Origin: a virus
IMG/VR virus record: IMGVR_UViG_3300029825_000558
Reading direction: 5' to 3' (one strand)
Length of the DNA: 28,443 nt
Positions 1-28,443 of the stretch are shown in pieces. Position numbers and translations under genes: made by a program. Each line of letters starts with the position of its first letter. Within the stretch, counting starts at the first letter, position 1. The notes beneath the pieces were generated by a model. It ran no database searches. It was given only the letters and a program-made list of their open reading frames with translations, and was not told the origin of the DNA.

Positions 1-3000
1 CTCGGCGGTCTGCTTGGCGGTCTGCTTGGCGGTCTGCTTGGCGGTCTGCTTGGCGGTCTGCTTGGCGGTCGGCTCGGCGGTCTGCTTGGCGGTCTGCTTG
101 GCGGTCTGCTTGGCGGTCTGCTTGGCGGTCTGCTTGGCGACACGGGGGAGCGCGGTCTTGGTGGTGAGCTTACCGGGTATCCTGGCGACCTGGATGGCGA
201 CACGGGGGAGCGCGGTCTTGGTGGTGAGCTTACCCACAAACTAGGCGACGGCGACCGGGAAGAGAGGAGGGGTGATGGCCTGGAGCCCGGAGATGTTAGA
301 GTACTCGGGGAACGTTTCGGCGAGTGTGAGAGAACTTGTGAGAGAGATTGAGGCAGGCTTGTAAACAAAGGGTGAGATGTTGTTACTACGGACATCTCGG
401 AGCCTAATATAAGCTGAGTTATAGAGGGGTTCTGCGGTTGTGCTCGCAATCGACGCGGATCGGCGATCAGAACCTTCGGCTCTCCTTTGGCAAGCGCCGT
501 TGCGTATTGCGCTTTGACCGACCGGGCAACATCTGATCCCCATGTCTCCAGAAATCGATTCAAACTTTTCTCGGCACTCGTCGCCCTGATCACCTTTACC
601 GGGCTACGGCTACTCCGCATGACGTCGATCGCGAGTTTCTCTGCAAAGTAATAGTCGGCGATGTCTTTGATACGCCCGGGTTTTTTCGGGAGGAGTCGAC
701 CAGATAGGATGAGATCCGACCCCCTGACATGAGTGGACTCGATTGACGGGCGGAGTTGCATCGAACCTTCCAGTTTCCTTGTCGCCTGTTCGGAGAGGGT
801 GATTGAGTTGATACCTTCCCGGGTCTTTACGAGTTTCTCCCCCTTGATGCCGAAGGCGATGTATTCAGATGTGCTTTTCGGGGTGAACTGCCGCTCGGCG
901 GCTGCAGTTTCGAGATCATGGAGATCGAAAAGTTTCTCCCCAGTGCGTTTGACGAGTACGCCCGCTTTGCCTTCCGGTATGACAACTTCCTGTCCTGCAG
1001 CGCGATTAATATCCGCAACGATTTTCTGCTGGAATGCCTGTGTACTCGTCACCTGTACATCGAAGTCACGCGGGACCCGGGAGAGCCCGACACCTCCGAC
1101 TTCCCGCCCGATCCCGCGCTGTACGACGCTGCCGTAGAGCTGGGCGCCGTCATCGCGGAGGGCGGTCACGATCGTCTTTGAGACTGCTCTGGGGTTTGGG
1201 ATGCCGTGTTGCGTGACGACCTCGTGGATGACAGGTGATGCCTCTTTCAGCGTCAGTCTGGAGGATTGCGTCACGGTGCGGATATCTCGGGCGAGACCGA
1301 TTCGCTCCCCCTCCACGCCACCGAGAGTCTTCTGAACAATTTTTGACTCAAAGGGGGTTGCAGGAGTGAAGCGCTCGGTGCCCAGAGCCTTGGCGATGTC
1401 GACCTTCGGGGTGCCGGTCGTGAACCTGAGCCCTTCGGCCGTTCTGCCGATGCCAACCAGAGGCCTGAACCCGACGACGTTTCCACGCGATATTTCTACG
1501 CCGAGTGAGGCATATGACTCGGCAGGAAAACCCGCGCGACCCAATGTGGGACGTACCGGGCTTACGGCCGCTGCACGAGAGGCGCCGTGGAAGATGAGTG
1601 CTCCCGCCGCGAGTTCTCCGCCAAACTGTAGGGGGTGCTGGGTTGCGTGAGTTGCGAGGTCGGTGGCGTATTTTGCCGTTCCGGGGGCGAGGGCTGCGAA
1701 AAACTCTTGAGGGTGCCGGGCGGCGTACTCGGCGGCGGGAACGGCTAATCCCATGCTCTGTATTCCTAGAAGGGCGCGCCATCCTCCGGTACCGATCTCT
1801 GCCATCCCGCCGGCGACGGCTTTCGGGATGCCACCTTCGGGGAACATCTGGTCGATCACCTGGTGGGTTGATGCGCGCTGCCTCTCTATCCATTCACTCC
1901 CGGCGGCCTGGATCTTCTCTGTGCCGCCGACTACTGGTGCGGTGACGAGCCCTGTTTTGACGGCGGCATCATAGAGTGGGGTGCTGCTCGGCGGCGGCGG
2001 ATAGTCGGATGTTTTAAGGGGCTTCCCTGCTTTGATGATCCTGAATCCAGTCTGATCCGTGAGGGAGTCTTTTAAGGATACTGCGTCCCGCTGCCGTGCG
2101 GCGAAGTCTGAGACCTCACTAAAATAATCCTGATGCCGGGGGTCCGGGAGGATGTTGAAATTCTGTTGTAGCGAGGTCTGCGCAGCCGCTGCCCGCGCCT
2201 TCTGTTCTGCGATCATCTCCCGGGGGTCGCGGCCATACTTGGCGGTTGCTCCTGTGTATCCTTCCCTGGCGATGGTCTGAGCGATGATCTGCGCTTCGGT
2301 AAGGGCCTGCCCGATCTCGTTCGCGCGTTTGATTGCCTTCTCGTCTCTGGCGGCCTGGAAGTTTGCGATATCGGGGTACTGGACGTTGAAGAGCTCCTGC
2401 TGAATGTAGGGCTGTTTCCACTCGTCGTATCCCTGCGTGGTCTCGCCGGCCTTGAACGCCTTGAGGTAGTCCGAGTACGTCACGTCAGTACGTCGGGCGG
2501 CTTCGGCGTAATCCTCGGAATACTTTTTGTACTCCTCGAATGCCGCGTGGCGCTCCGCTGCCTGTTGCGCCATCGCCTGGAGCATCTCGTGATATGCTTT
2601 CCGTTGTGCGGCTACCTCCATAGAGTGCTCTTCTTCCGCCGCCCGACGGGCCTCGCCGCTCATGAACTCGACGGAACGCCGCTCCTCCTCGGCAGCCACG
2701 TTCTCGGCGAGAGATTCGCCCCTCGGGGCGCTGCCGTCCCGGGGTCGCATGCCCGTGATCCGTTCGGCGAGCATCGGGGTTTTGGGGGCGTCGATTGCCC
2801 CTTTGACGTCCGCGCCCCACCCCATCAACCGATCCTTTTCGGCCCGCTGCCGCCGGGCGGCCGCTTCGACCTGGAGTTTGCGGATCTGTTCCTGCCGGCG
2901 CTGCTGCTGCAGTTGCTGCTGCTGGCGCTGCTGCATGACGGTGTAACTCTGCTGCACCCGCTGCTGCTGTTGCCGGGCCTGGATCGTGATCTCGGAGTCG

Positions 3001-3029
3001 GCGCCGATGGGTTCAATGGGGGCGGCCAT
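1..3029 (-). CDS. Giant protein, 5' part (~1009 codons; runs off the contig start). Gln-rich/coiled-coil N-terminus, central nucleotidyltransferase-like motifs, Ser/Pro/Arg-rich repeat region
   Basis: Hand translation from ATG at 3029 (MAAPIEPIGADSEITIQARQQQQRVQQ...) is stop-free to base 1. It starts 4 nt after the stop of 3034..3708. The track lists no minus ORF in this frame, consistent with one unterminated ORF. Confidence 0.85.
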   Translation of the reverse strand, partial: MAAPIEPIGADSEITIQARQQQQRVQQSYTVMQQRQQQQLQQQRRQEQIRKLQVEAAARRQRAEKDRLMGWGADVKGAIDAPKTPMLAERITGMRPRDGSAPRGESLAENVAAEEERRSVEFMSGEARRAAEEEHSMEVAAQRKAYHEMLQAMAQQAAERHAAFEEYKKYSEDYAEAARRTDVTYSDYLKAFKAGETTQGYDEWKQPYIQQELFNVQYPDIANFQAARDEKAIKRANEIGQALTEAQIIAQTIAREGYTGATAKYGRDPREMIAEQKARAAAAQTSLQQNFNILPDPRHQDYFSEVSDFAARQRDAVSLKDSLTDQTGFRIIKAGKPLKTSDYPPPPSSTPLYDAAVKTGLVTAPVVGGTEKIQAAGSEWIERQRASTHQVIDQMFPEGGIPKAVAGGMAEIGTGGWRALLGIQSMGLAVPAAEYAARHPQEFFAALAPGTAKYATDLATHATQHPLQFGGELAAGALIFHGASRAAAVSPVRPTLGRAGFPAESYASLGVEISRGNVVGFRPLVGIGRTAEGLRFTTGTPKVDIAKALGTERFTPATPFESKIVQKTLGGVEGERIGLARDIRTVTQSSRLTLKEASPVIHEVVTQHGIPNPRAVSKTIVTALRDDGAQLYGSVVQRGIGREVGGVGLSRVPRDFDVQVTSTQAFQQKIVADINRAAGQEVVIPEGKAGVLVKRTGEKLFDLHDLETAAAERQFTPKSTSEYIAFGIKGEKLVKTREGINSITLSEQATRKLEGSMQLRPSIESTHVRGSDLILSGRLLPKKPGRIKDIADYYFAEKLAIDVMRSSRSPVKVIRATSAEKSLNRFLETWGSDVARSVKAQYATALAKGEPKVLIADPRRLRAQPQNPSITQLILGSEMSVVTTSHPLFTSLPQSLSQVLSHSPKRSPSTLTSPGSRPSPLLSSRSPSPSLWVSSPPRPRSPVSPSRSPGYPVSSPPRPRSPVSPSRPPSRPPSRPPSRPPSRPPSRPPSRPPSRPPSRPPSRPPSRPP
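4..135. repeat. 12-bp tandem repeat GGCGGTCTGCTT x11 (one variant GGCGGTCGGCTC), encoding (PSRP)n on the minus strand
   Basis: Direct reading; same unit as at 28344-28443. Confidence 0.98.
136..234. repeat. 39-bp direct repeat with 60-bp period (136-174, 196-234), encoding VSSPPRPRSPVSP twice
   Basis: GGCGACACGGGGGAGCGCGGTCTTGGTGGTGAGCTTACC occurs twice. Confidence 0.95.
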
Positions 3030-3033
3030 AGGA

Positions 3034-3708
3034 TCAGGCCCCTCCGCCGCCCAGGACGAGCGCCAGACCTGCCAGACCCATGACGGCCAGCAGGGCGATC
3101 ACACCGATGTTGCTACCGAACCCACCGATCTTCTCGGTCAGGTTCTTGTTGATCAAAGTCTTGACGAGATATGTGCTCTCGACGCTCTCGCCCCGGCTCC
3201 TGGGAGTCATGCCGGACCAGAACGCGACGCTCTGAACGTTGACCTTCGTGAAGAGCGGCACCAGGACTTCGTCGTTCTTGGAGATCTTCTCGCCGTTCGG
3301 TGCAACGCCGTCTTTGATCGCCTGCAGGAGTTCACGGTTGGTCTTGACGCCGTATTTCTCCTGCACCGCCTCAATGGCGGCCATCTTGTTTGGGTCAGTG
3401 AGGACCCCATACGCGTCGTTGACGTGCTGCAGCTGCACGGCGCCGAACCGGGTACCGCCCGCTTCGAGTTGGAGCCAGTCATACAGCTTGTCGCCAATCT
3501 CGGTCCGGATCTTGCCGTCTACCGACCGACCCCGCAGGAACCGGGACGTGTTGTCGGCAAACGTGACCATGAGGAGTGGGGGCTTGATCTTCGCTAGCGA
3601 TGCCTTGATGTACTCCTGACATGGGCCGGCGAGGACCCAGAGGATCACGATGACGAGGAATTCGAGGATTGCGGCGATGCCGAAGACGAGGCTAAGCATC
3701 GCGGGCAC
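3034..3708 (-). CDS. Membrane protein with N- and C-terminal TM segments (probable virion/assembly protein), 224 aa
   Basis: Track ORF; hydrophobic termini; co-oriented in the structural operon. Confidence 0.8.
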   Translation of the reverse strand: MPAMLSLVFGIAAILEFLVIVILWVLAGPCQEYIKASLAKIKPPLLMVTFADNTSRFLRGRSVDGKIRTEIGDKLYDWLQLEAGGTRFGAVQLQHVNDAYGVLTDPNKMAAIEAVQEKYGVKTNRELLQAIKDGVAPNGEKISKNDEVLVPLFTKVNVQSVAFWSGMTPRSRGESVESTYLVKTLINKNLTEKIGGFGSNIGVIALLAVMGLAGLALVLGGGGA

Positions 3709-3747: not shown

Positions 3748-4242
3748 TCATTTCCTCCAGGGGTTCAGGCGGCTGAGGATGCCGCCCTTGTCCGGGGCGG
3801 TGGTCTGCGGGGCGTCCTCGTTGCGCCGGTGGATGGTACTGTACTGGCTGATCAGGTTGACCCGCTCGTTCGGCGTCCCGCCCTCGTAGGATTTGCGGAG
3901 CAGCCAGCCGACGAAGAAGAGCAGCTGCTGGAGTTCTGCCGGCGAGAGGGCCGGCTGGGAGTCGTCCCAGGACGCCTTCCGGATGATGTCCTCGATCTGG
4001 AGCAGGTGGATCTCGAGATCCGTCCAGTTCTGGATCTTGCCGAGCTGGAGATGGTGGTTCAGGATCGACCAATACCGCTTTCGGAGCGATTCATCGACAC
4101 CAAACTCTTCCAGCAACATTCTCCACTGTTTCTCGGTGAGAACGGGTTGGGGGTCGTATGCCGGCACGTATGGCTGCTGGGGCTCGGTAGGGCCGTAGTC
4201 CAGATCGTAGGGGTAATCGTACGGGTTAGGTGGCTCGCTCAT
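3748..4242 (-). CDS. Hypothetical protein, 164 aa, Pro/Tyr-rich N-terminus
   Basis: Track ORF; GGAGAGA RBS before the ATG; protein-like composition. Confidence 0.8.
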   Translation of the reverse strand: MSEPPNPYDYPYDLDYGPTEPQQPYVPAYDPQPVLTEKQWRMLLEEFGVDESLRKRYWSILNHHLQLGKIQNWTDLEIHLLQIEDIIRKASWDDSQPALSPAELQQLLFFVGWLLRKSYEGGTPNERVNLISQYSTIHRRNEDAPQTTAPDKGGILSRLNPWRK

Positions 4243-4657
4243 GGCGTAATCTCTCCTTTATGAGGGTGTTCAGGGGGCGGATGGCGAGGATGCCCGGTAC
4301 GATGGGTAGGGACGCCGAGAGTTTGACGGCCGGATACACTGTTTCGACCGGGATCGGGGGGGGTAGGGACACCGAGAGTTTGACGGCCGGATACACTGTT
4401 TCGACCGGGATCGGGGGGGGTATGGACGCTGCCTGAATCGTAATTATATCAATTGCGGCCTCCGGAATGGTGCCGACGACGGTCAGCATGGTCAGCTGCC
4501 AGATCGCGATCCCGGCGGCCACCGCTGTCAGGGTTACGACCCCCTTCTGCTTGCAGTTGGTCGGTACGATGACGGCGATGAACAGGAGGGCGAAGTACAG
4601 GAGGATGATCGCGGAGTAGAGCGGCGGGCCGACCGGCAGCACGATGGTGCTCCTCAT
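4226..4657 (-). CDS. Membrane protein (~143 aa, start MRSTIVLP) with an internal 19-aa duplication
   Basis: Two to three hydrophobic segments; ATGA overlap with the stop of the upstream gene at 4654-4657. Confidence 0.65.
   Translation of the reverse strand: MRSTIVLPVGPPLYSAIILLYFALLFIAVIVPTNCKQKGVVTLTAVAAGIAIWQLTMLTVVGTIPEAAIDIITIQAASIPPPIPVETVYPAVKLSVSLPPPIPVETVYPAVKLSASLPIVPGILAIRPLNTLIKERLRHERAT
4304..4422. repeat. 57-bp tandem duplication (SLPPPIPVETVYPAVKLS[V/A])
   Basis: Units at 4304-4360 and 4361-4417 are near-identical. Confidence 0.95.
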
Positions 4658-5136
4658 GGCTGTGCGTCCCCCCGGCTCCGCACCATGGCGAGGTATGCTG
4701 AGAAGAGCGACAGGATTGAGAAAATCATGAGCAAGAACACGATCCACCCGACTCCCGGGATCTCGTACTGGATCAGGACGGGTTGTATGGTGTGGTCGAT
4801 GACGGCCCCCGTCGTGGCGTTGACGACCGGGACGATCTCGTAGGTGACTTCGCGGACGAGGCCGATCAGGTAGGTCGCGGCGCCGGAGAAGACCAGGGCG
4901 AGCGATGCCGTGAGGACGGCACTCTCGGGATCCCCGTCAGGCCGGTTGTAGCGGATGCTGAGCAAGAGCAGGAAGAGGGCGACGCCGAAGATGGTGAGCC
5001 ATAGGGGGAGGGGGATGGCGTTGTGCTGGACGAGCTCTACCGTCGTGGAGACGTTGGCGGCGGTTGCCGGACCGGCGAGCGCGAGAAGAGTGGCGTGGAG
5101 AGCGAAGGTTCGTCTCGAAAAGGAGGATAGGGGCAT
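4654..5136 (-). CDS. Membrane protein with signal peptide and ~3 TM helices (~160 aa, start MPLSSFSRR)
   Basis: Signal-like ...LLALAGPATAA, NxS/T sequons, hydrophobic segments; GGAGG RBS upstream. Confidence 0.75.
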   Translation of the reverse strand: MPLSSFSRRTFALHATLLALAGPATAANVSTTVELVQHNAIPLPLWLTIFGVALFLLLLSIRYNRPDGDPESAVLTASLALVFSGAATYLIGLVREVTYEIVPVVNATTGAVIDHTIQPVLIQYEIPGVGWIVFLLMIFSILSLFSAYLAMVRSRGDAQP

Positions 5137-5155
5137 TCCATAAGCCTCCTTGGTC

Positions 5156-5491
5156 TTAGAACGATCCTCTGATGATGTACAGAATCGCGGCTGCACCGGC
5201 CACGATGACGCCGATCGCGAGCAGGGTGATCGAGGTGCTGCCGTACTGGTTGACGGTCGTGAGGAGCGCGTAGTAGGCGCTCGTTTCGCACACGGTGCCC
5301 TGCGTGGCGGTATCCAGGTTGCCCAGGACGATGACGGCGACGATGAGCGCGACGACTGCTCCAGTGACGCCGAAGATGATCGACTGCAGATCGGCGACGC
5401 CGTTCTCGTCGATGTGGTACTTGGCCATATCCAGCTGGAACATGAGGTTGTGCCAGGCAGCAGTGATGGCGGTTATGTTGATAATAGACAT
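5156..5491 (-). CDS. Putative major capsid protein of spindle-shaped-virus type (111-aa precursor, two hydrophobic helices)
   Basis: 31-aa N-terminal extension ending DENG, then ~80 aa with two long hydrophobic helices joined by a polar loop (SSV1 VP1/His1 MCP topology). Strong GGAGGTG RBS and its own AT-rich promoter; adjacent to an ATPase. Confidence 0.6.
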   Translation of the reverse strand: MSIINITAITAAWHNLMFQLDMAKYHIDENGVADLQSIIFGVTGAVVALIVAVIVLGNLDTATQGTVCETSAYYALLTTVNQYGSTSITLLAIGVIVAGAAAILYIIRGSF

Positions 5492-5578: not shown

Positions 5579-6469
5579 CTACCGGGCAATTACCATATCA
5601 TTGGTATCGATTTTATCATACTTTGCTGTACCAAACCGCCCGTATTTCTCAATCATGTAGTGTCCCGGTTTAACAGATGAGCGCCTCATTCGGAGTTCTG
5701 AATCTTTGGGAATAAGGGCCGCTTTTAAATAGATCCTCATCATGATCTTCTCAAGTATAGTCCAATCAACTGTCCGTGAATCATGAAACGCTATCAGAAA
5801 TGACATTTTTGTCTTTCTGAGGTCTCGGACAATTGAATCCCTAAACCAGTCTTGAAAGTGCCGTTGCGGATTCTTCGCGTTAAGTCTGAGGATGTGATCC
5901 GCCTCATCGATGATAACGGTAACAAATTCGTCTGGATTCTTATTCTTTTTTATAAAGTAAATGACTTCGTAAATGAAGAACGCGCCCGGGATCCGCTTAG
6001 GGGGGGTGTCAAGGAACTGTGACTCCATAATCTCCTCAAGGAGTTCCTCGTCCATAGAGTAGTGTCGTGGCTCGTAGACAATGTTTACCCACCCCCGTTT
6101 TAAATTCTGTGCAATCTCATACCCAGTATTGTATCTCAGCGTTTCTACTTCAATCGGGTTCCCACTTGTATCTAAAAATGAAATATCGTCACCAAAAAAG
6201 ACATGCACGCAGATTTTTTTTCCTTGAATCAGATGCCAGTTGTCTTCTTCTCGCCCCCTCCAGACCACCGTCTCTTTCATTAACCTTTTTTTTGCGTTAT
6301 CGAAATACGCAACTCTGCCAGCGATGGTTACCAGTAGCGACGTTTTCCCCGTCCCAGGGGGAGCCCATATCGCCGCCAGTTCCCCCCCACTCTCCGGGTA
6401 GTGTGTCAATAGTTCTTGTGAGAGGCGGGCACCCTCACGGATAGATATTTGCTCGCCAAACTGAGACAT
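5579..6469 (-). CDS. P-loop ATPase (viral packaging/extrusion type), 296 aa
   Basis: Walker A APPGTGKTS, Walker B VIIDEA, followed by RK..hhhhFH as in FtsK/HerA-like viral ATPases. Confidence 0.85.
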   Translation of the reverse strand: MSQFGEQISIREGARLSQELLTHYPESGGELAAIWAPPGTGKTSLLVTIAGRVAYFDNAKKRLMKETVVWRGREEDNWHLIQGKKICVHVFFGDDISFLDTSGNPIEVETLRYNTGYEIAQNLKRGWVNIVYEPRHYSMDEELLEEIMESQFLDTPPKRIPGAFFIYEVIYFIKKNKNPDEFVTVIIDEADHILRLNAKNPQRHFQDWFRDSIVRDLRKTKMSFLIAFHDSRTVDWTILEKIMMRIYLKAALIPKDSELRMRRSSVKPGHYMIEKYGRFGTAKYDKIDTNDMVIAR

Positions 6470-6470
6470 A

Positions 6471-6839
6471 TCAATCCTCCGGGTCTTGGAGGTTATTATT
6501 CATGCTATTCATGCTTACCATGTCGCGGCTAAGCACTATGAGATCCTCTTTTAGGGCGATTGTTAACATCTCTTTCCGGATATATCGGAGTTCCATTCGT
6601 GCCACCTTCCACCCCCCCCGAAGATCATCTATAGAGGCAACTGCACGGTCATATCTGGACTCAAGCCCCCGGATCGTGTCGGTATATTCACCAACCCCTC
6701 TCTCTGCGAGCATTGCTGGGATCATTGTGAGATATACTTCTGCCTCGCGTAACAGGTCATAGTTACCTATTGCGTGCGAGAAGTTCCCTATTAATTGTCC
6801 TAGGACCTCTTTCACTGAATCTGAAGGCATTGTAATCAT
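6471..6839 (-). CDS. Hypothetical helical protein, 122 aa
   Basis: Track ORF abutting the ATPase; TATA-like TTAAATA (6859-6865) ~20-26 nt upstream. Confidence 0.75.
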   Translation of the reverse strand: MITMPSDSVKEVLGQLIGNFSHAIGNYDLLREAEVYLTMIPAMLAERGVGEYTDTIRGLESRYDRAVASIDDLRGGWKVARMELRYIRKEMLTIALKEDLIVLSRDMVSMNSMNNNLQDPED

Positions 6840-7642: not shown

Positions 7643-7909
7643 CTAGATGTTGCTATACTCTTTTTCAACTCCGGCCCCCCCACCCGTGAACGTAAAACCG
7701 AATACGCTCGCGCTCTGTGTTGGAAAACGGGAGCCTGTGGACTCGCTCCCGGTGGGGAGGGGGATGAAGCAGGAAGCCCCCTGCGTAAGCGGGGGGTAGT
7801 TCACCTCCACGAAATAATCGCAACCCAGACAATCGTCGTAATCCACCAGTCCATCAATGGGACAGTAGATATGATGCTCAAACTCGATCTCTCGTGTCAT
7901 CCTCTTCAC
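7643..7909 (-). CDS. Hypothetical Cys-containing protein, 88 aa
   Basis: Track ORF; YCP...DCLGCDY pattern; GAGG RBS. Confidence 0.45.
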   Translation of the reverse strand: MKRMTREIEFEHHIYCPIDGLVDYDDCLGCDYFVEVNYPPLTQGASCFIPLPTGSESTGSRFPTQSASVFGFTFTGGGAGVEKEYSNI

Positions 7910-10100: not shown

Positions 10101-10103
10101 CTT

Positions 10104-18422: not shown

Positions 18423-18425
18423 TCC

Positions 18426-18885: not shown

Positions 18886-18895
18886 GATCTTACCT

Positions 18896-18988: not shown

Positions 18989-19028
18989 GAGAAGGAGGGG
19001 GCGGGCCGTGGCCCGCCAGGGGGAGGGG

Positions 19029-19238: not shown

Positions 19239-19248
19239 ACTCAATAGT

Positions 19249-20534: not shown

Positions 20535-20616
20535 GATTGTGCAGCCTCCCACCGCTCGCGCCGCGAGGTAGCGGGGCCGGGAGACCCGGCGGACGGTGAG
20601 GAGGTGAGGGCTAACA

Positions 20617-21259: not shown

Positions 21260-21712
21260 ATGGAGCGTGTAAAAATGGCATTCCGAAAACGTACAGATCA
21301 ACTTTTAATCCGTGTTTTGGTGGGGTTTACCCCGTCACAACTGGAACACATTGATGGCCAGTCAGATTATGGTCGCGGAGCATACCTCCGGTGGCTAGTG
21401 GATCAGGACCGCCGAAGAACACAACTGCAGGAAGGAGCTTATCAGAAGCGACTGGAGGCAGACCCTGATCAACCGTTAGACTATGCGACACCTAGTGATT
21501 ATGAAATCACGTTTGACGCATACCGCGATCACTTTTTCCAACCATTATATGAGGCGTTCAATGATGGCCAGGGGATTGACCATTTGATCCCGACTTTTGC
21601 GGGTTTGATGGAGAAATTGTTACAAAAAAGAGCCCTCGACACCCAGATTCAGGTGTTTTTGAGAGAGAAGATGTTTGAGGTCGGTAACACGAATGATAGT
21701 GAAAGTACTTAA
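21260..21712 (+). CDS. Protein with an N-terminal ribbon-helix-helix-like segment (~150 aa)
   Basis: RVLVGFTPSQLEHID...GRGAYLRWLVDQD; part of track ORF 21182..21712. Confidence 0.6.
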   Translation: MERVKMAFRKRTDQLLIRVLVGFTPSQLEHIDGQSDYGRGAYLRWLVDQDRRRTQLQEGAYQKRLEADPDQPLDYATPSDYEITFDAYRDHFFQPLYEAFNDGQGIDHLIPTFAGLMEKLLQKRALDTQIQVFLREKMFEVGNTNDSEST

Positions 21713-21925
21713 AACTGATATCTATCTATCTATCTATCAGGGGGTTACGACCCCTTTGTCTTTTGCGAGGCTAGTGCCTCGTTTTGCGAGGCTAGTGCCC
21801 GGTTGTAGAGGTTTTTAATTAATAGTATATATAAAAAACTGTAACGAATCTTCATCAGGGAAAAATCGAAACGCATAGAGGTGTTCCCCGGAGGTGATAG
21901 ATAGATAGATGGATATCAGTTTTAA
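21709..21925. repeat. 31-bp inverted repeats (1 mismatch) enclosing 155 bp with two 18-bp direct repeats and an AT-rich TATA element
   Basis: 21709-21739 versus 21895-21925; TTTTGCGAGGCTAGTGCC at 21761-21778 and 21782-21799. Confidence 0.95.
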
Positions 21926-22269
21926 TTAGTTTTAAGGGTGAAAATCAAATATAGTATTACGTTCTAAGGAGATGTTGTTACTTTTCGAGGGGTGCCGCAC
22001 CCAAAACCCCCCTCAAAACCGATCAGAAATGACCCTCGCCCCCTCAAAAAACACCCAACATCTCTAAAAAAGTATAATGTCCGAGAGTCGGGGAGGGACT
22101 GAGGTGGTTGCTCGACACACAAGTTCGGCTCTCCCAACTCGCACTCGTGCAGGCGCTCACAAGTGCCGACAATATCCTATCTCAAAAGGCAGGGCATAAA
22201 CCCCTCACCCCGCGCACCGCGAAAGTGTCCACTCTCATTCACCCGCCCGACGAACATTAACAGATCTGC

Positions 22270-22674: not shown

Positions 22675-23163
22675 TTAGTAATAAACCGCACCCAACCCAG
22701 TCATATTTACCCCGATAAACACGACATTTCCCCGATATGCTACTATTGCTCCCCCGGTGTGGTCGGGATACAATAAGTTCCTTCGGTGCCCTTCGCTCTT
22801 CATCCATGCATTGATTGCCTGGTGCATATCAGCAGACCGGCCGCCACCGAATAGATTTTCAGCGACGTACTCTCGGCGATTGAACCCGAATTTCCCCTTC
22901 AGTGTGGCGGGATTGGATTTCGTTTTCGGGTTGACGTGCGCGAAATAGCGGTAGCGGTGCAGGTCCCGGAGCCGAGCTCTACCGAGATTGAGTGCTCGAT
23001 CATCAATAGGGATCGGTTTTACGCCGTGCCTCTTGCGGATTTTGTTGATCTGCCGCATCGCTACTCGCAGGTCTTTCGAGTAGTGCCTTCGCCGCCGGTG
23101 GCGGCGGGGGCTGAGGTGGAAGAACGAGAGGAGCGCCCTGATTACCCGACTGAAGAACCTCAT
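22675..23163 (-). CDS. Highly basic CAP/SCP-domain protein (~162 aa, start MRFFSRV)
   Basis: INKIRKRHGV..., YFAHVNP, VAENL, INAWMKSEGHRRNLL. Confidence 0.85.
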   Translation of the reverse strand: MRFFSRVIRALLSFFHLSPRRHRRRRHYSKDLRVAMRQINKIRKRHGVKPIPIDDRALNLGRARLRDLHRYRYFAHVNPKTKSNPATLKGKFGFNRREYVAENLFGGGRSADMHQAINAWMKSEGHRRNLLYPDHTGGAIVAYRGNVVFIGVNMTGLGAVYY

Positions 23164-23977: not shown

Positions 23978-24132
23978 TGAAATTTCCTCCGTGCATCGTT
24001 TACCGGCCAGACGCCGTAGGACGCTTTGCTACGCCGGTCAACCACCCGCACCTTGAGCAGGTCGCAGATCTTATCGAGGTCATCAACAGACGGGCGGTTG
24101 ACTACCGTGAATTTCAGGTCTTTTCTGATCAT
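23974..24132 (-). CDS. Micro-protein, 52 aa (MIRKDLKFTVV...)
   Basis: Hand translation; ATGA overlaps at both ends. Confidence 0.7.
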   Translation of the reverse strand: MIRKDLKFTVVNRPSVDDLDKICDLLKVRVVDRRSKASYGVWPVNDARRKFQ

Positions 24133-24557
24133 AATCTATCTCTCAGGTAGAGTTTCATCAGTATAGCCACAATGCAGGCCGCCAGCATGACGTAGCCGAC
24201 GACGAACGTCTCCGGGGGCATGATAGCCCCCCAGACGGTGCCGGAGATCAGGCCGACCGTGAGCGGCATTGTGACGTCGCCGGTGCGCATGTACGACAGG
24301 CCCAGGTACAGGAACCAGAGCATGGCGAAGAACCAGTACCCGAAGATGTTGATGAACGGCAGACAGATGGCGTAGATGAGTCCGTATGTGGGGAACCCGT
24401 TGGAGAAGTCCAGCCAGTACTGAGTGTAGGTGCCGCTCCGCAGGTCGTAGTCGAACTCCGGGGCGGTGAAGTTGCCGTCGGAGATCCCGGCGGCGGCCGG
24501 GCTGACGAGGGCAAGCAGGGCCAGCGCCAACCATGCTAACAGGGTTTTGTTCCGCAT
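24129..24557 (-). CDS. Signal-peptide membrane protein with ~4 TM (~142 aa, start MRNKTLL)
   Basis: AGGTGA RBS; signal peptide ...VSPAAA; NFT sequon. Confidence 0.8.
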   Translation of the reverse strand: MRNKTLLAWLALALLALVSPAAAGISDGNFTAPEFDYDLRSGTYTQYWLDFSNGFPTYGLIYAICLPFINIFGYWFFAMLWFLYLGLSYMRTGDVTMPLTVGLISGTVWGAIMPPETFVVGYVMLAACIVAILMKLYLRDRL

Positions 24558-24562
24558 ATCAA

Positions 24563-25003
24563 TCACCTGATGGTCTTGTCTCCGACGCCCCGCACGAACT
24601 GCATGATGCCCCATCCGTAGGTGAACCAGCAGCCCCCGGTGATCATGAGATTCAAGATCATGGGGATGCCGAGTTCCGCGAGGAAGAAGGGCAGGAACGC
24701 GGTACTGTTCACGAGGGCGTTGATCGCAAGCGCGATCGCTCCAAGCAATCCTATATTTGTCAAGTCGGACGGTTGGTAGTCGATGAAGTCTCGGGTGATG
24801 TTGAGTAATGCCGGATCGTGGCCGGGGACGAAGGTTTCGTTGGAGAGACTGCCGAACACGGACCCGTTGACACCGTAGGAGTAGACGCCTTCTTCGATGG
24901 TCGGCGGGGTTGTATAGGCACTACCAAAGAATTGCGTGCCGCTGAAGAAGCAGAGCGCGTAGTTGAAGAGGAAGAGGTAGAGGGCTATTTTGTATGCCTG
25001 CAT
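24563..25003 (-). CDS. Membrane protein, 146 aa, with N-glycosylation sequons
   Basis: Track ORF; NGS, NET, NIT; TM at both ends. Confidence 0.8.
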   Translation of the reverse strand: MQAYKIALYLFLFNYALCFFSGTQFFGSAYTTPPTIEEGVYSYGVNGSVFGSLSNETFVPGHDPALLNITRDFIDYQPSDLTNIGLLGAIALAINALVNSTAFLPFFLAELGIPMILNLMITGGCWFTYGWGIMQFVRGVGDKTIR

Positions 25004-25004: not shown

Positions 25005-27800
25005 TTATGCTCCCTCCGCGATGTTTGCGAGGAACGCGAATACTGCCGCTGCGATGACCCAGAACCACGGGACGGTGATCCAGTCGAAATACCGGAACAG
25101 GGCGGCGACTAGGGCGACGATGAGCGCTCCTTTTGCTCCGGTTGAGTAGTAGAAGATCCCGCCGAGTATCATGAGGAAGATGATGAAGACGGCGTTCTGG
25201 ATGTTTTCGTCCCAGAACGGGAGGGCGATGGGCGAGGCGTTCTGGGGGGTGATGAACCACATGTTCTGTATACTCCCGCCGCTGCTTCGCTGGATCTTGA
25301 CGTTGACTTTGTATGAGATGTCGGGTTCGGAGATGGGGTAGGTGGCGGTTACAGTGGTGGCTCCGGATGTGGTATGTGAGTATACTTCGGAATATGTGTC
25401 TGTGCGGACGATTGACCACGAGACGGTGGCAGGCCCTTCGTTGTCGGTGTAGGCCATCTCGATTGCCTGGCTCGATGCGTTATACTGGACGTCGTAGTTG
25501 TATTTTTCGTAGATGAGCGGCGATCGGAACGCTACGCTATATATCGCGGTTGCCGAGGATGCCTGGATGACGACGATCTTCTCCCCGTTGTTGATATTGA
25601 TCTGGTAGTAGTGGCCGGTATGGGTGCTGATAACGATTTTGCCGTCGCTGTCGGTGCGGAGGTTGTTATACAGCGGAGTCCATTCGTCCGGGTCGCTGAT
25701 ATCTGCGGTTGATACTGATACGGTTTTGCCGATATAGGGCTTGCCGTCTTTGATTGTGTAGACTGTCATCTGTGAGTCCGGGGGGGGCGCGTCGGTTGTC
25801 GTGTAGAGGACGACGCTGCCGTCTGCTCGTCCGATGACGGCGATTTCACCGCGCCAGGACATGGCGATGGCCGTAACGGGCTCTTCGCTGTCGCTGCTGT
25901 GGAGGAGATACCAGGAGCTGGATTCGTCTTTGCTGAAGATATAGTACTTCCCGTCGTCGCTCCCGGCGGCGGCGTAGAGGCCGTTTTTCTGTGCGATGGC
26001 GACGTGTTGGACGGGGCCGCCGGCGGCGTAGGTGCCGACCTGCACGCTATCGAACCGGAAGATGTCGGCGAGGATGCCCCGGCCTTCGATGAGATTTGCG
26101 CCGTTGTTGGCGATGGCGACGGCGTAGGGGGTGCCGGTGCGGTCGGCGCTGTAGACGGTGCCGAAGCCGCTGTCGGTGATCTGGATAATGTAGGTCTTGG
26201 TGGTGGAGGAGACTGCCACCCAGTCGCCGGTTTCGGGGGCGTCGATGTCGATGATGGTGCCGTCAAGGGTTTTGGTGTCGAGGGGGGTTAGAACGGAGTG
26301 GACTGTGCCCCAGGAGCGGGGGAAGAACTCAACGGTGTTGTAGGATGTGACACCGATATCATAGATTCGCATATGTCCCGAGACGAACTCGTCGTAATGC
26401 CCTGCACGGAAGACCAAGGGGACGACAGACGCCCCCCCTTCTCGACTGATATTGAAATCTCCACCGTAACTGTATGTTGCGGAGCCTCCGGGGGTATATC
26501 GGGCATCGAGTTGGTGGGGAGAGTCGAGAGTGACGGAGAATTCGGTATAACTCCCCCAATGGAATTTTTGGCCGCCCGCGAAGGCATCGCTGAACACTCC
26601 GGTCCAAGCGCCGTCGAGGGAGGGCAGGGTGTTCCGCTCTTGGTTGGGGGCTTCGTGGAATGAGATGTTTGTGATGATCCGATGTGGGCCGTGTCTGAGA
26701 GTTGGGCCGGAGAGAGTTGCATACGTCGAGGCCAGATGCGAGGCATAGAGGTCAAGATACCCATTGGTCTCCTGAACAGTGGCGCCGGATCCTACGATCG
26801 ATGTGGCCCAGAGCGATGGGTTGATAACTCCGTCCTCAAAATCGTCGTAGAATATCCACCGTGCGTCCGGGTCGGAGGTGGTGGTGGTCGCGGCGGGATT
26901 GGCCCAATACACGTAGATCGTCGTCGTTCCGGGGCTTTTCGGGATGGATGGGATTTTTACATAGAATTTCGCGGTGTTGCCGTTGACTGATTCGAGATAA
27001 TATGGGAGTTGGGTTTTTCCGTCACTGGCAGTGAACCGGATGTCGGCGAAATCCGCGCGACATTCGGGGGCGTAGAGGGTGCTGCCTGTGCTCGTGCCGC
27101 TCCCCCTGATGACGGTGATCTCAATAGGGTAGTTCGTCAGAGCGCCGTCTGTGCTGCCGGTGATGGTGTGAGCTGCGCGATTTTCCCACGCAAAGCCATT
27201 ATATGAGGCGATCCACCCATCCCAATCAGGGGTGTTGATATCATAGAGGTTTAGCGTGGTCCCGCTCGCGGTGCACCCCCAATCCCCCTCTCCGGAGAGG
27301 CAGACATCAGTGTATGTGCCGGTTGCGCGGAAGATGCGATTCCCGTCTGAGTTCCGAAGATCAACTGCCTGACCCGTCCATATCTCTCCGCTAACGTCTC
27401 CCGTCTGCGATATCGCAACCCTTCCCAGAGCACCCCAACCCCCGGCTTGGTTACGCCAGTATACTGATCCTGTGGAAACGTCCCGAACTTCTAGCCGACC
27501 GGGAACACCAAGCGTTGAGATTTTGAGGCGATCCCCACCAACTTCAAGCGCCCCGATTGGACGATTGCCGCTCGGCGTCGTCACCTGCTCGGACCACACC
27601 ACGCTCCCGGCGGAATTGTAGCAGTACACCATCCCGCTCTCGGTGCCGACGAAGATGAGATCGCCGCGCTCGTCGGTGGCGACGGCGGTGATCGCCGAGC
27701 CGGTCTCTTTCGTCCACGCTTCCCCGGCGGACGCGAGGGGCGCGAGCGAGGAGAGGAGCAGGAGGGCGACGAGGAGCAGGGGGAGTTGGCGGCGGATCAT
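25005..27800 (-). CDS. Large adhesin/receptor-binding protein (~931 aa): signal peptide, beta-propeller split by a DUF2341 plus lectin-like insert, C-terminal TM helices
   Basis: Start MIRRQLPLLLVALLLLSS with GGAGG RBS; WD/PQQ-like blades; DFADIRFT...LPYYLE...FYVKIPSIP...TIYVYWANP (DUF2341). Confidence 0.85.
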   Translation of the reverse strand: MIRRQLPLLLVALLLLSSLAPLASAGEAWTKETGSAITAVATDERGDLIFVGTESGMVYCYNSAGSVVWSEQVTTPSGNRPIGALEVGGDRLKISTLGVPGRLEVRDVSTGSVYWRNQAGGWGALGRVAISQTGDVSGEIWTGQAVDLRNSDGNRIFRATGTYTDVCLSGEGDWGCTASGTTLNLYDINTPDWDGWIASYNGFAWENRAAHTITGSTDGALTNYPIEITVIRGSGTSTGSTLYAPECRADFADIRFTASDGKTQLPYYLESVNGNTAKFYVKIPSIPKSPGTTTIYVYWANPAATTTTSDPDARWIFYDDFEDGVINPSLWATSIVGSGATVQETNGYLDLYASHLASTYATLSGPTLRHGPHRIITNISFHEAPNQERNTLPSLDGAWTGVFSDAFAGGQKFHWGSYTEFSVTLDSPHQLDARYTPGGSATYSYGGDFNISREGGASVVPLVFRAGHYDEFVSGHMRIYDIGVTSYNTVEFFPRSWGTVHSVLTPLDTKTLDGTIIDIDAPETGDWVAVSSTTKTYIIQITDSGFGTVYSADRTGTPYAVAIANNGANLIEGRGILADIFRFDSVQVGTYAAGGPVQHVAIAQKNGLYAAAGSDDGKYYIFSKDESSSWYLLHSSDSEEPVTAIAMSWRGEIAVIGRADGSVVLYTTTDAPPPDSQMTVYTIKDGKPYIGKTVSVSTADISDPDEWTPLYNNLRTDSDGKIVISTHTGHYYQININNGEKIVVIQASSATAIYSVAFRSPLIYEKYNYDVQYNASSQAIEMAYTDNEGPATVSWSIVRTDTYSEVYSHTTSGATTVTATYPISEPDISYKVNVKIQRSSGGSIQNMWFITPQNASPIALPFWDENIQNAVFIIFLMILGGIFYYSTGAKGALIVALVAALFRYFDWITVPWFWVIAAAVFAFLANIAEGA

Positions 27801-28051
27801 ATGTAGGCGTCCTCCTGGGCGCGTAGGGATACGACGATCGCCCAGACGATGACCCCGAAGATGAACGGGATCGGGAAGTTCGTCCAGACGGCGACGATGA
27901 AGTCGAGGAGCCCGACGTCGCAGCCGCAGGCGACCCCGAGGTCGTAGAGGACGCCGGTCACGACGTCGTAGAGGATGCCCCAGACAAGCATGACCTGGAA
28001 GATGACGACGATCACCGTCAGCCAGGCCATTCCGATAGATGTTCGTGCCAT
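27797..28051 (-). CDS. Two-TM small protein, 84 aa (possible minor capsid protein)
   Basis: Track ORF; same two-hydrophobic-helix layout as 5156..5491. Confidence 0.75.
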   Translation of the reverse strand: MARTSIGMAWLTVIVVIFQVMLVWGILYDVVTGVLYDLGVACGCDVGLLDFIVAVWTNFPIPFIFGVIVWAIVVSLRAQEDAYI

Positions 28052-28057
28052 TGTGGA

Positions 28058-28443
28058 TCACCAGAACAATGTTTTCTTGCGTTGTTTCCCGGAGAGCAAC
28101 TTCTCCAGCGCCCTCGCCCCGCGTCTGTCCGCAACCGGCTGCCGCCGCTGGTCGGCGACGAAGATGAGCTGCGGGCGGGAGGCCGCAACCCGGGCCGATT
28201 CCCTCACGACCCTCTCGGGCGGTCTGATGCCGAGGACCTCCCACGGGGTGGCAATCGGTGCGATGACTTCCCGCCGGCGATATTTATCATAGCGCCAGGG
28301 GCGGCGGCCGCGCCGGGTAGGGGTCAGGGACATGATGAGGGGCGGCGGTCGGCTCGGCGGTCTGCTTGGCGGTCTGCTTGGCGGTCTGCTTGGCGGTCTG
28401 CTTGGCGGTCTGCTTGGCGGTCTGCTTGGCGGTCTGCTTGGCG
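28058..28443 (-). CDS. 3' end of the giant protein that starts at 3029 (PSRP repeats, then Arg-rich tail ...KKTLFW)
   Basis: The repeat is read as PSRP in frame with track ORF 28058..28333, the same register as at the contig start. Confidence 0.8.
   Translation of the reverse strand, partial: PSRPPSRPPSRPPSRPPSRPPSRPPSRPPSRPPPLIMSLTPTRRGRRPWRYDKYRRREVIAPIATPWEVLGIRPPERVVRESARVAASRPQLIFVADQRRQPVADRRGARALEKLLSGKQRKKTLFW
28344..28443. repeat. 12-bp tandem repeat GGCGGTCTGCTT x8 plus a partial unit
   Basis: Direct reading. Confidence 0.98.

What the first reader, a model, noticed from the sequence alone, without database searches (positions are those of the whole stretch)
1..28443. Probable complete genome of a temperate spindle-shaped-like virus of a high-GC methanogen, with no recognisable replication enzyme
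Seen: both ends lie in the same coding repeat and register; there is a small two-helix hydrophobic protein, an ATPase, a TM-anchored adhesin, an integrase and Xis/RHH regulators; there are no terminase/portal/HK97, PolB, MCM, primase or Rep motifs. Known: Fuselloviridae/Halspiviridae MCPs are small, processed, two-helix proteins encoded near an ATPase and a TM-anchored terminal protein. Inference: an undescribed lineage that relies on the host replisome. The host assignment is indirect.
Basis: partly seen in the sequence, partly recalled or inferred. Interest (0 to 1): 0.7.

Follow-up and report, generated by a model that had tools for sequence, protein, structure and literature searches.

The report
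Circular virus-like genome of Methanomicrobiales methanogens
This 28.4-kb contig is an essentially complete circular genome of a mobile element, most likely a lemon-shaped (spindle) virus, that infects methane-producing archaea of the order Methanomicrobiales in anaerobic digesters; it belongs to a sizeable family that I could not find described in the library I searched.

Summary
The observation largely holds. Both contig ends lie in one 12-nt coding repeat. A homologue in a Methanomicrobiales genome (G037:C16) reads as one continuous gene across the equivalent junction, so the contig is a circle broken inside a gene of at least 1137 aa. The host is now directly supported. Spacers in five verified CRISPR arrays of Methanomicrobiales genomes match the window at 94-100%, including four consecutive spacers in one array, and a host IS fragment is 100% identical. 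The ATPase is a PAV1 ORF375 homologue (30% identity, phrog_22963 at 1e-49) and distantly matches SSV1 B251. Its confident fold resembles FtsK/HerA-type packaging ATPases. In over 30 related loci a two-helix hydrophobic protein follows this ATPase. Its family profile ranks the SSV1, PAV1 and His1 capsid proteins 1st, 3rd, 5th and 6th of 269 ORFs. However, the Pfam capsid models and hhalign do not match, so "spindle virus" is probable, not proven. No replication enzyme was found in Pfam or PHROGs. "Temperate" is unproven: the only recombinase is a 187-aa catalytic-domain protein. RHH/Xis regulators were not confirmed. The scan noted a related methanogen virus window elsewhere (e1-5833296).

The parts
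1..3029 (-). Giant gene, first 1009 codons (ATG at 3029). It encodes a Gln-rich coiled-coil N-terminus, a Gly/Ala-rich hydrophobic middle, a globular region with nucleotidyltransferase-like motifs, and then a Pro-Ser-Arg-Pro linker that runs off the contig start.
   Evidence: ORF. 82% aa identity over 557 aa to a continuous 1016-aa ORF in G037:C16. Homologues of 980-1320 aa. ESM Atlas nearest clusters carry Poly_A_pol_cat (score 0.93, lead only).
28058..28443 (-). C-terminal part of the same giant gene: the Pro-Ser-Arg-Pro repeat followed by a basic domain of about 90 aa (motif KYRRREVIAPIATPWEVLG).
   Evidence: Same reading frame as the other end. 66% identical to the C-terminus of the continuous G037:C16 ORF. 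The same linker-plus-motif architecture occurs in P0202.
4..139 (.). 12-nt tandem repeat (11.3 copies) at the contig start. Its partner array is at 28344-28443 (8.3 copies).
   Evidence: Register analysis: 5+12k missing bases restore both the repeat register and the reading frame.
3034..3708 (-). 224-aa protein with N- and C-terminal TM helices; conserved core gene.
   Evidence: The family was found in 15 related loci and in the G023:C2 circle.
3748..4242 (-). 164-aa soluble protein; conserved core gene.
   Evidence: Family found in 21 related loci.
4654..5196 (-). 180-aa ORF encoding a signal-peptide protein with 3 TM helices; conserved core gene.
   Evidence: Family found in 27 related loci.
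5156..5491 (-). Candidate major capsid protein (P0001, 111 aa): an N-terminal segment of about 35 aa followed by two long hydrophobic helices.
   Evidence: Homologues were found in 34 related loci, nearly all within about 1.5 kb downstream of the ATPase. 511 clusters in the 1.8-billion-protein library. 16 of 105 members hit phrog_16261, 'virion structural protein'. The family HMM ranks SSV1 VP1, PAV1 ORF121, SSV1 VP3 and His1 VP21 at 1, 3, 5 and 6 of 269 ORFs. The ESM Atlas nearest named clusters are VP1_VP3 and His1_capsid. Against: no Pfam hit to PF06281 or PF25665 and hhalign probability of 8%.
5579..6469 (-). 296-aa P-loop ATPase of the PAV1 ORF375 / phrog_22963 family, with an FtsK/HerA (A32-like) fold.
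   Evidence: tblastn to PAV1 at 30% identity, E 2e-24. phrog_22963 at 1e-49. AF2 pLDDT 90. Foldseek top hits are the STIV2 B204 packaging NTPase, HerA, the PH1 ATPase and Zot. The family HMM hits SSV1 B251 at E 2e-5; hhalign gives 69%.
6471..6839 (-). 122-aa protein always found immediately upstream of the ATPase; conserved core gene.
   Evidence: Found in 46 related loci.
7731..7806 (+). Fragment of a host IS200/IS605 element: the last roughly 75 nt of tnpB, including the right-end (omega-RNA) region.
   Evidence: 76-100% identical to copies in many Methanomicrobiales genomes. In hosts it is the 3' end of a 391-aa TnpB-like ORF, and similarity stops at the element end. It is not a tRNA.
8307..8870 (+). 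187-aa tyrosine recombinase consisting of the catalytic domain only.
   Evidence: PF00589 at 3.7e-15; phrog_1 and phrog_216 integrase. 60% aa identity to a 190-aa homologue inside a region of the G042 chromosome that also carries a large integrase.
9675..16284 (-). Run of about 25 small genes, many with Cys4 zinc-binding motifs, joined by a recurring stop-plus-ribosome-site motif. It includes a C5 DNA methyltransferase at 10962-11996.
   Evidence: Repeat families D3-D9; translations; PF00145 at 1.4e-39.
16335..20784 (-). Accessory or early genes: a 303-aa acidic protein with a C-terminal zinc ribbon, a PARP-like 101-aa protein (18117-18422), DUF6573 (18466-18885), and small basic and membrane proteins.
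   Evidence: Segments are 73-84% identical to contigs of Methanomicrobiales MAGs G351 and G198.
21702..22269 (.). Largest non-coding gap. It is AT-rich, with 38-nt inverted repeats and a 21-nt tandem repeat; candidate origin and divergent promoter region.
   Evidence: I1 and D19. GC of 0.44, lying within the broad trough (19-24 kb) of cumulative GC skew. The function is inferred only.
22675..23106 (-). Secreted or membrane CAP-domain protein.
   Evidence: PF00188 at 4e-9.
24129..25003 (-). Two membrane proteins (161 aa and 146 aa) downstream of the adhesin. The first has homologues in the same position in relatives.
25005..27770 (-). Adhesin-like protein of about 921 aa: signal peptide, beta-propeller repeats, DUF2341, and three C-terminal TM helices.
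   Evidence: PF10102 at 2e-18 plus beta-propeller families. Start and TM helices read from the translation. Proteins of the same size class and architecture (signal peptide, three C-terminal TM helices; no detectable sequence similarity) occupy the same position in relatives.
15663..15730 (.). Two adjacent protospacers, both matched at 100% by neighbouring spacers of the G161:C24 CRISPR array. Other protospacers: 4272-4305, 8325-8357, 11759-11792, 23605-23642, 23961-24004, 24278-24311, 24560-24595, 24590-24622 and 27828-27861 (matching arrays verified); 10561-10593 and 21579-21612 (100% spacer-length matches in G156 and G137, arrays not checked).
   Evidence: Arrays verified by their repeats for G161:C24, G121:C11, G055:C1, G117:C1 and G037:C1.

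Best explanation
The window is the near-complete circular dsDNA genome (about 28.45 kb plus an unknown number of 12-nt repeat units) of a virus-like element of Methanomicrobiales methanogens. It belongs to a family that is common in anaerobic-digester and sediment metagenomes.

The long minus-strand operon is a morphogenesis module. In order it encodes a 122-aa protein, the ATPase, the two-helix protein, several membrane proteins, the giant protein, the adhesin and further membrane proteins.

Inferred mechanism, not shown:
- The two-helix protein inserts into the host membrane and forms a lemon-shaped shell, as SSV1 VP1, PAV1 ORF121 and His1 VP21 do.
- The FtsK/HerA-type ATPase drives DNA into, or condenses it in, the nascent particle.
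- The TM-anchored beta-propeller/DUF2341 protein sits at one pole and binds the host surface.
- The genome is copied by the host replisome, probably starting at the AT-rich repeat region around 21.7-22.3 kb.
- The C5 methyltransferase and the many small zinc-binding proteins serve protection and host takeover.
- The small tyrosine recombinase resolves dimers or mediates integration.

Shown here: circular continuity, the gene families, family-wide synteny, CRISPR targeting by Methanomicrobiales, and the ATPase fold class.
For: - Circularity.
- Host: spacer matches at 94-100% in five verified arrays, including four consecutive spacers of G161:C24; a 100% identical host IS fragment; a Methanomicrobiales and a Methanoregula label.
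- Virus-type module: ATPase homologous to PAV1 ORF375 and weakly to SSV1 B251, with a packaging-ATPase fold.
- Capsid candidate: homologues of the two-helix protein found in 34 loci, nearly all just downstream of the ATPase. Its family profile picks the four known spindle capsid proteins as ranks 1, 3, 5 and 6 of 269 ORFs. SSV19 VP1 ranks 13th of 177,635 PDB sequences. 16 of 105 members hit phrog_16261, a virion structural protein. The ESM Atlas nearest named clusters are VP1_VP3 and His1_capsid.
- Adhesin: a lectin-type adhesin with TM anchors, as in PAV1/TPV1-like viruses (PMC12934983).
Against: - No particle has been seen.
- The capsid-protein link is weak. No Pfam PF06281 or PF25665 hit was found in 115 family members scanned. 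hhalign against four known capsid proteins gave 7-8% probability. HMM scores of 5-10 bits are near the noise for TM proteins. The structure model has low confidence (pLDDT 61), and its fold search was uninformative.
- Only one gene has significant sequence similarity to any isolated virus.
- FtsK/HerA-type ATPases and small two-TM proteins also occur in conjugative systems: one family member hits TrbC/VirB2 at E 0.0013, and TcpA ranks 44 in the fold search.
- Physical closure of the circle was not tested with reads.
Confidence: 0.6

Rival explanations
1. It is a non-viral integrative or conjugative plasmid, or a vesicle-borne element, of Methanomicrobiales. On this reading the ATPase and membrane proteins form a DNA-transfer apparatus and the two-helix protein is a pilin-like or channel subunit.
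For: The ATPase fold class (FtsK/HerA) also includes conjugation coupling proteins (TcpA at rank 44). One family member hits TrbC/VirB2 pilin at E 0.0013. CRISPR systems target plasmids as well as viruses. An integrated element with this ATPase but no detectable two-helix protein exists in the G014 chromosome.
Against: No VirB4/TraG-size ATPase, relaxase or VirB6-like family was found. The best fold matches are viral A32-like packaging ATPases. The closest sequence relative is in PAV1, which forms virions. The profile of the two-helix protein prefers known capsid proteins.
Confidence: 0.2
2. It is an enveloped pleomorphic virus, like the pleolipoviruses. On this reading the two-helix protein is an internal membrane protein and the large TM-anchored protein is a fusion spike.
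For: The gene set superficially resembles that of pleolipoviruses: a small membrane protein, a large C-terminally anchored surface protein and an NTPase, with no obvious replicase in some lineages. Unclassified pleolipovirus-like viruses of methanogens are mentioned in PMC12451623.
Against: No PHROG or Pfam hit to pleolipovirus VP3, VP4 or NTPase families. No DUF7845 Rep-Arvir, which betapleolipoviruses carry (PMC13107129). The ATPase groups with PAV1 and SSV1.
Confidence: 0.1
3. The contig is not a complete replicon. It would then be a piece of a larger provirus or chromosome whose ends happen to fall in a repeated gene.
For: The ends do not overlap exactly. No reads were available.
Against: One homologous gene bridges the junction in G037:C16 and in P0202. 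Gene order across the ends equals the contiguous order in L032, L039, L042 and L050. No cellular genes or tRNAs are present. A relative with the same core is a closed circle.
Confidence: 0.05

Closest known systems
Pyrococcus abyssi virus 1 (PAV1) and PAV1-like 'Osirisviridae' of Thermococcales
   Same: Homologous ATPase (ORF375; 30% identity over 93% of the protein; phrog_22963). Circular dsDNA. One long operon of membrane proteins containing a small hydrophobic capsid-type protein, a very large ORF and a lectin-type TM-anchored adhesin. No conserved replicase in the core.
   Different: No other protein is detectably similar by tblastn. The host is a mesophilic Methanomicrobiales methanogen. 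The genome is 28 kb rather than 18 kb. It has no DUF7845 Rep-Arvir. It has one beta-propeller/DUF2341 adhesin instead of two concanavalin-like proteins. The giant protein carries a nucleotidyltransferase-like region and a Pro-Ser-Arg-Pro linker.
Fuselloviridae (SSV1) and Halspiviridae (His1)
   Same: A two-helix hydrophobic capsid-type protein with an N-terminal extension, as in the SSV1 VP1 precursor. Distant ATPase similarity to B251 (E 2e-5; hhalign 69%). A large TM-anchored terminal protein. A tyrosine recombinase, as in SSV1.
   Different: Pfam VP1_VP3 and His1_capsid models do not match. The recombinase is not the SSV type with attP inside the gene. There is no protein-primed PolB, which His1 has. 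The ATPase fold here looks FtsK/HerA-like rather than DnaA-like.
Eurekaviridae (Methanosarcina spindle-shaped virus 1) and contigs C1359/C1697 of Ngo et al. 2022 (PMC9796341)
   Same: Putative spindle-shaped viruses of methanogens recovered from anaerobic digesters by metagenomics. C1359 was predicted by spacers to infect Methanoculleus.
   Different: The only classified family targets Methanosarcina (PMC12451623). No relative of the window's ATPase other than PAV1 was found in the phage collection. I could not compare sequences with C1359, because it is not held by the tools.
A32-like / FtsK-HerA genome-packaging ATPases (STIV2 B204, PRD1 P9 class) and Zot-like assembly ATPases
   Same: Best structural matches of the ATPase model (Foldseek probability 1.0, E about 2e-7, TM 0.63-0.67 normalised to B204). 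Walker A and hhhhDE Walker B motifs are present.
   Different: About 10-14% sequence identity. The protein is larger than B204 because of inserted beta elements. These ATPases are known from icosahedral membrane-containing or filamentous viruses, not from spindle viruses.

Membership tests
Spindle-shaped archaeal viruses with an SSV1-VP1-like capsid protein | Capsid protein matching Pfam PF06281 (VP1_VP3) or PF25665 (His1_capsid) | tested here: not met
   No hit for P0001, for the 15 members of A2, for the 105 members of A4, or for 10 further members scanned at E<=10.
Spindle-shaped archaeal viruses with an SSV1-VP1-like capsid protein | Remote homology of the small protein to known spindle capsid proteins | tested here: inconclusive
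   For: the A4 HMM ranks SSV1 VP1, PAV1 ORF121, SSV1 VP3 and His1 VP21 at 1, 3, 5 and 6 of 269 ORFs; real sequences score 5-11 bits above their reversed versions; phrog_11172 and phrog_5402 hit 3 and 2 members; 7xdi VP1 ranks 13th in PDB; ESM Atlas lead. Against: hhalign probability of 7-8%.
Spindle-shaped archaeal viruses with an SSV1-VP1-like capsid protein | Small protein (about 70-140 aa) made of two hydrophobic helices | tested here: met
   Sequence and hydropathy. AF2 predicts helices 35-64 and 72-110 at low confidence.
Spindle-shaped archaeal viruses with an SSV1-VP1-like capsid protein | Lemon-shaped virion | not testable with these tools
   Needs electron microscopy.
PAV1-like viruses ('Osirisviridae') | ORF375-type ATPase | tested here: met
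   E 2e-24 at 93% coverage; phrog_22963 at 1e-49; family HMM against PAV1 at E 4e-71.
PAV1-like viruses ('Osirisviridae') | Shared set of other core structural genes | tested here: not met
   No other window protein matches PAV1 at E<1e-3 on the right strand. Core-family HMMs give only E>0.07.
Tyrosine integrases of temperate elements | PF00589 catalytic domain with the Arg...His-x-x-Arg...Tyr residues | tested here: met
   56.6 bits against a cut-off of 27.1. Motifs visible in the translation.
Tyrosine integrases of temperate elements | N-terminal DNA-binding domain, an attP site and integrated copies | tested here: not met
   The protein has only 187 aa. No tRNA or att-like match was found. 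The host-identical stretch at 7731-7806 is an IS fragment. No integrated close copy was found in 401 genomes.
FtsK/HerA superfamily (A32-like packaging ATPases) | Fold similarity together with Walker A and Walker B motifs | tested here: met
   pLDDT 90. Foldseek top hits are B204, HerA, the PH1 ATPase, a Corticoviridae NTPase and Zot. Invariant GxGK and DE residues.
Rep-Arvir (DUF7845) rolling-circle initiators of PAV1 and betapleolipoviruses | PF25227 domain | tested here: not met
   No hit in any ORF.
Pleolipoviridae | VP3/VP4-type membrane and spike proteins and the conserved NTPase | tested here: not met
   No PHROG or Pfam match.

The most novel reading that the evidence does not exclude
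The ATPase shared by PAV1, this family and (distantly) SSV1 B251 may not be a DnaA-like replication initiator, as database labels say. It may instead be an FtsK/HerA (A32- or Zot-like) DNA-translocating morphogenesis ATPase. Spindle-shaped viruses would then load their genomes with a packaging or extrusion motor and depend wholly on the host replisome. The conserved giant protein, with its Pol-beta-like nucleotidyltransferase region, would be an unexplained second enzymatic component of the particle or the entry machinery.
Probability: 0.35. Interest if true: 0.7.

Novelty: new member of a known kind. Interest (0 to 1): 0.55.

Why it matters
Methanomicrobiales (Methanoculleus, Methanoregula and relatives) are major methane producers in digesters and wetlands. 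In the ICTV 2025 summary (PMC12451623) the only spindle-virus family classified for methanogens targets Methanosarcina. This genome gives a complete reference for a recurrent family: 55 related metagenome loci and 511 clusters of the capsid-type protein. It also carries a firm CRISPR-based host link. That makes the family testable in culture, for example by induction, by electron microscopy of digester viromes, and by proteomics. The confident ATPase model also offers a concrete hypothesis for how lemon-shaped viruses handle their DNA.

Tried and rejected
1. KQTA frame or TAG read-through for the terminal repeat. The Lys-Gln-Thr-Ala frame has GC3 of 0.94 and is interrupted by a TAG at 241-243. 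I rejected it because homologues carry a diversified Pro/Ser/Arg linker in the other frame, fused to the same C-terminal domain.

2. attP as a tRNA fragment. The 51-nt direct repeat at 17363-17413 and 17901-17951 looks like a T-arm plus acceptor stem, but Rfam gives nothing better than E 5. The 75-nt host-identical stretch at 7731-7806 is the end of an IS605-family tnpB, not a tRNA.

3. IMG/VR scans with single proteins and with an alignment found only PAV1.

4. The first GTDB scan was empty, probably because the generic Walker-A pattern supplied most of the 600 candidates. A second scan without that region found three MAG contigs.

5. tblastn of a capsid-type relative against the phage collection found no match.

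6. phrog_16261 is absent from PAV1, SSV1 and His1. I could not establish which viruses it comes from.

7. The fold search of the low-confidence capsid model gave nothing at E<0.3.

8. PDB sequence searches of the giant protein and of the 176-aa plus-strand protein were uninformative.

9. The genome search cannot reach metagenome loci.

11. G037:C16 has almost the same length as the window, but it is not a full relative. Only the giant gene and one small gene match.

Full report
**What the window is.** The window is a 28,443-bp metagenome contig held by JGI/IMG and ENA. No parent genome is held. Overall GC is 56.6%, ranging from 44% to 64% along the sequence. Nearly all plausible genes lie on the minus strand. 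No tRNA gene and no significant Rfam family is present.

**The ends.**
- A 12-nt unit (GGCGGTCTGCTT) is tandemly repeated at 4-139 and at 28344-28443.
- On the minus strand, the ORF that starts at 3029 stays open to base 3 and reads Pro-Ser-Arg-Pro through the repeat. The same frame is open from 28441 down to 28058.
- A direct join is 5 nt short of the repeat register and therefore out of frame. Adding 5+12k bases restores both. The assembler evidently stopped inside the repeat.
- I first suspected the other frame (Lys-Gln-Thr-Ala, GC3 0.94). Homologues settle the question.
- A Methanomicrobiales genome contig (G037:C16) carries one continuous 1016-aa ORF. Its first 557 residues are 82% identical to the window's ORF. 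Its tail is a diversified Pro/Ser/Arg-rich linker followed by a domain 66% identical to window 28058-28333.
- A distant homologue (P0202, 1064 aa) has the same linker and C-terminal motif.
- The two ends therefore belong to one gene of at least 1137 codons, and the '91-aa ORF' at the right end is its C-terminal domain.
- The gene order on either side of the junction (224-aa membrane protein, giant protein, adhesin, two membrane proteins) equals the contiguous order in related contigs L032, L039, L042 and L050.
- A relative with the same core, G023:C2, is a 37,497-bp contig with a 95-bp terminal overlap, so it is a closed circle.
- Circularity of this particular molecule is thus strongly inferred, but it was not shown by reads.

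**Gene content.** Pfam and PHROGs recognise the following:
- a tyrosine recombinase (8307-8870);
- a C5 DNA methyltransferase (10962-11996);
- DUF2341 plus beta-propeller repeats in a large secreted protein with three C-terminal TM helices (25005-27770);
- a CAP-domain protein;
- DUF6573;
- a weak PARP-like match;
- a P-loop ATPase (5579-6469) that matches phrog_22963 at 1e-49.

No terminase, portal, HK97 capsid, PolB, MCM, primase, HUH Rep or DUF7845 Rep-Arvir was found. DUF7845 Rep-Arvir is the initiator recently shown for SNJ2 and assigned to PAV1 ORF528 (PMC13107129). No tool confirmed RHH or Xis proteins.

**The ATPase.**
- The only hit in 50,697 phage and archaeal-virus records is PAV1 ORF375, at 30% identity over 93% of the protein with E 2e-24.
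- A family HMM built from the related loci also hits SSV1 B251 at E 2e-5 among 269 ORFs. hhalign to B251 plus His1 ORF16 gives 69% probability, but only around the P-loop.
- The AlphaFold model is confident (pLDDT 90, pTM 0.90).
- Its best structural neighbours are the STIV2/STIV B204 packaging NTPase, HerA, the putative ATPase of the haloarchaeal virus PH1, a Corticoviridae NTPase, vaccinia A32-like ATPases and Zot.
- It is therefore an FtsK/HerA-class ATPase. This class drives DNA into membrane-containing capsids or drives the assembly of filamentous phages. That it does the same here is inference.

**The family.**
- A scan of JGI metagenome contigs with an ATPase alignment returned 55 loci, mostly from digesters, bioreactors, wetlands and sediments.
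- In these loci the order is conserved: 122-aa protein, ATPase, two-helix protein, signal-plus-3-4-TM protein, about 160-aa soluble protein, about 230-aa protein with terminal TM helices, a large soluble protein, a large secreted protein with three C-terminal TM helices, and further membrane proteins. A large (about 420-aa) integrase often lies upstream.
- In the closest group (L005-L015) the ATPase is only 50-55% identical while the downstream structural proteins are 85-98% identical. This indicates recombination between lineages.

**The capsid candidate.** P0001 (111 aa) has an N-terminal segment of about 35 residues and two long hydrophobic helices. Homologues were detected in 34 loci, in nearly all of them immediately downstream of the ATPase. 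A profile of 15 of them finds 511 clusters at E<1e-3 in 1.8 billion representatives.

Direct membership tests fail:
- No member hits Pfam VP1_VP3 or His1_capsid.
- hhalign to SSV1 VP1, SSV1 VP3, His1 VP21 and PAV1 ORF121 gives 7-8%.
- The fold search of the low-confidence model is empty.

Indirect evidence points the other way:
- 16 of 105 members hit phrog_16261 ('virion structural protein', best E 1e-6), and a few hit the SSV VP1 and VP3 PHROGs.
- SSV19 VP1 (7XDI) ranks 13th of 177,635 PDB sequences, aligned over both helices.
- The four known capsid proteins score 5-11 bits above their own reversed sequences.
- Among all 269 ORFs of PAV1, SSV1 and His1, they rank 1st, 3rd, 5th and 6th.
- The nearest named ESM Atlas clusters are VP1_VP3 (0.86) and His1_capsid (0.84), which are leads only.

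I read this as probable but unproven homology.

**Host.**
- A second GTDB scan found the ATPase on a short contig of a MAG titled 'Methanomicrobiales archaeon'. That MAG gave a centre for searching 401 genomes of the order.
- Short matches of 33-45 nt to the window, most at 94-100% identity (one at 88%), fall in CRISPR arrays that I verified by their repeats.
- Four consecutive spacers of G161:C24 match window 24278-24311, 27828-27861, 15695-15730 and 15663-15695.
- Two spacers match in G121:C11, three in G055:C1, two in G117:C1 and one in G037:C1.
- Further unverified hits occur in about ten more genomes.
- Window 7731-7806 is 100% identical to sequences in G198 and G225. In the hosts this stretch is the 3' end of a 391-aa TnpB-like gene, and similarity stops exactly at the element's end. 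It is an IS200/IS605 right-end fragment picked up from the host.
- Longer segments of the window are 67-93% identical to contigs of several Methanomicrobiales MAGs. One homologue is labelled Methanoregula sp. by NCBI.
- Sampled loci of the spacer-bearing genomes have about 60-64% GC.
- The host assignment to Methanomicrobiales is therefore well supported.

**Lifestyle.**
- The window's recombinase is a 187-aa catalytic domain. Similar small recombinases occur in relatives, sometimes beside a full-length integrase.
- A 60%-identical copy lies in a region of the G042 chromosome that also holds a large integrase.
- An integrated element with an integrase and a divergent copy of this ATPase sits in the 2.17-Mb G014 chromosome.
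- No att site and no integrated close copy of this genome was found. Integration is possible but not shown.

**Replication.**
- No replicase was recognised.
- There are two caveats. RefSeq calls SSV1 B251 and His1 ORF16 'DnaA-like replication initiation protein', so the ATPase could be read that way. Also, residues about 560-860 of the giant protein carry G-S...D-x-D motifs conserved in all homologues, and they sit nearest to poly(A)-polymerase-catalytic clusters in the ESM Atlas (0.93, lead only).
- The AT-rich gap at 21.7-22.3 kb, with 38-nt inverted repeats and a 21-nt tandem repeat, lies within the broad trough of cumulative GC skew. It is my candidate origin, by inference.

**Comparison with the literature.**
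- Spindle-shaped viruses of methanogens have been predicted from digesters (PMC9796341).
- One family, Eurekaviridae, for Methanosarcina, was classified in 2025. The proposals state that no spindle-shaped virus of a methanogen had been classified before (PMC12451623).
- PAV1-like viruses were recently expanded in Thermococcales. Their core includes lectin-type TM proteins and their replication modules are variable (PMC12934983).
- I found no description of this Methanomicrobiales-linked family in the library searched.
- It is best filed as a new, family-level member of the known kind 'small spindle-shaped archaeal viruses', conditional on the capsid assignment.

Noticed in passing
window 7731-7806: A 75-nt fragment, 100% identical to the 3' end and right end (omega-RNA region) of an IS200/IS605 tnpB found in many Methanomicrobiales genomes. 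It sits next to a 66-nt remnant (7668-7733, minus strand) of the C-terminus of a small recombinase like that of L032. A truncated omega-RNA scaffold in a virus could be a decoy or just debris.
   Followed up: partly
window 17363-17413 and 17901-17951: A 51-nt direct repeat (96% identical) flanks the gene 17413-17838. It folds as a closing stem plus a CCCGGG/TTCGAGG/CCCGGG T-arm-like hairpin followed by a T run. Rfam gives only a weak tRNA-like (mascRNA) match at E 5.3.
   Followed up: partly
window 9675-16302: The recurring motif (T)GGTAGAGG(A/T)GTGA, read on the minus strand, is the C-terminal ...Val-Glu-Glu/Arg codons plus the stop codon of one small gene. It overlaps the Shine-Dalgarno site of the next gene, which starts a few bases later. 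About 13 junctions share it.
   Followed up: partly
L005-L015 versus window 3034-6469: Mosaicism: in close relatives the ATPase is only 50-55% identical, while the adjacent capsid-type and membrane proteins are 85-98% identical. This implies a recombination breakpoint between the ATPase and the two-helix gene.
   Followed up: no
window 18117-18422: A 101-aa protein beginning ...LYHGTS... gives a weak PARP catalytic-domain match (E 0.007). It may be a small ADP-ribosyltransferase.
   Followed up: no
window 10962-11996 and 11027-11845: The C5 methyltransferase matches Pfam only over its first 170 residues, and an overlapping frame is also open. Both frames align to the G023:C2 homologue because the DNA is similar, so a frameshift or split gene could not be judged.
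   Followed up: no
L035/L042 (contig Ga0209509_1000691, 29,069 bp): One contig holds two different copies of the core module (ATPase plus two-helix protein) about 24 kb apart. This suggests tandem elements or a chimeric assembly.
   Followed up: no
L017 and L023: Low-GC relatives carry two tandem, nearly identical copies of the 89-aa two-helix gene plus a longer paralogue. This recalls the paired VP1/VP3 genes of SSV1 and the two capsid-gene copies reported for MSSV1.
   Followed up: no
G014:C1 953,353-966,400 (L111/L112): A chromosomal island in a Methanomicrobiales genome, next to a PCNA-like gene. It carries a 434-aa integrase, a divergent copy of this ATPase and a 1542-aa ORF, but no detectable two-helix protein.
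   Followed up: partly
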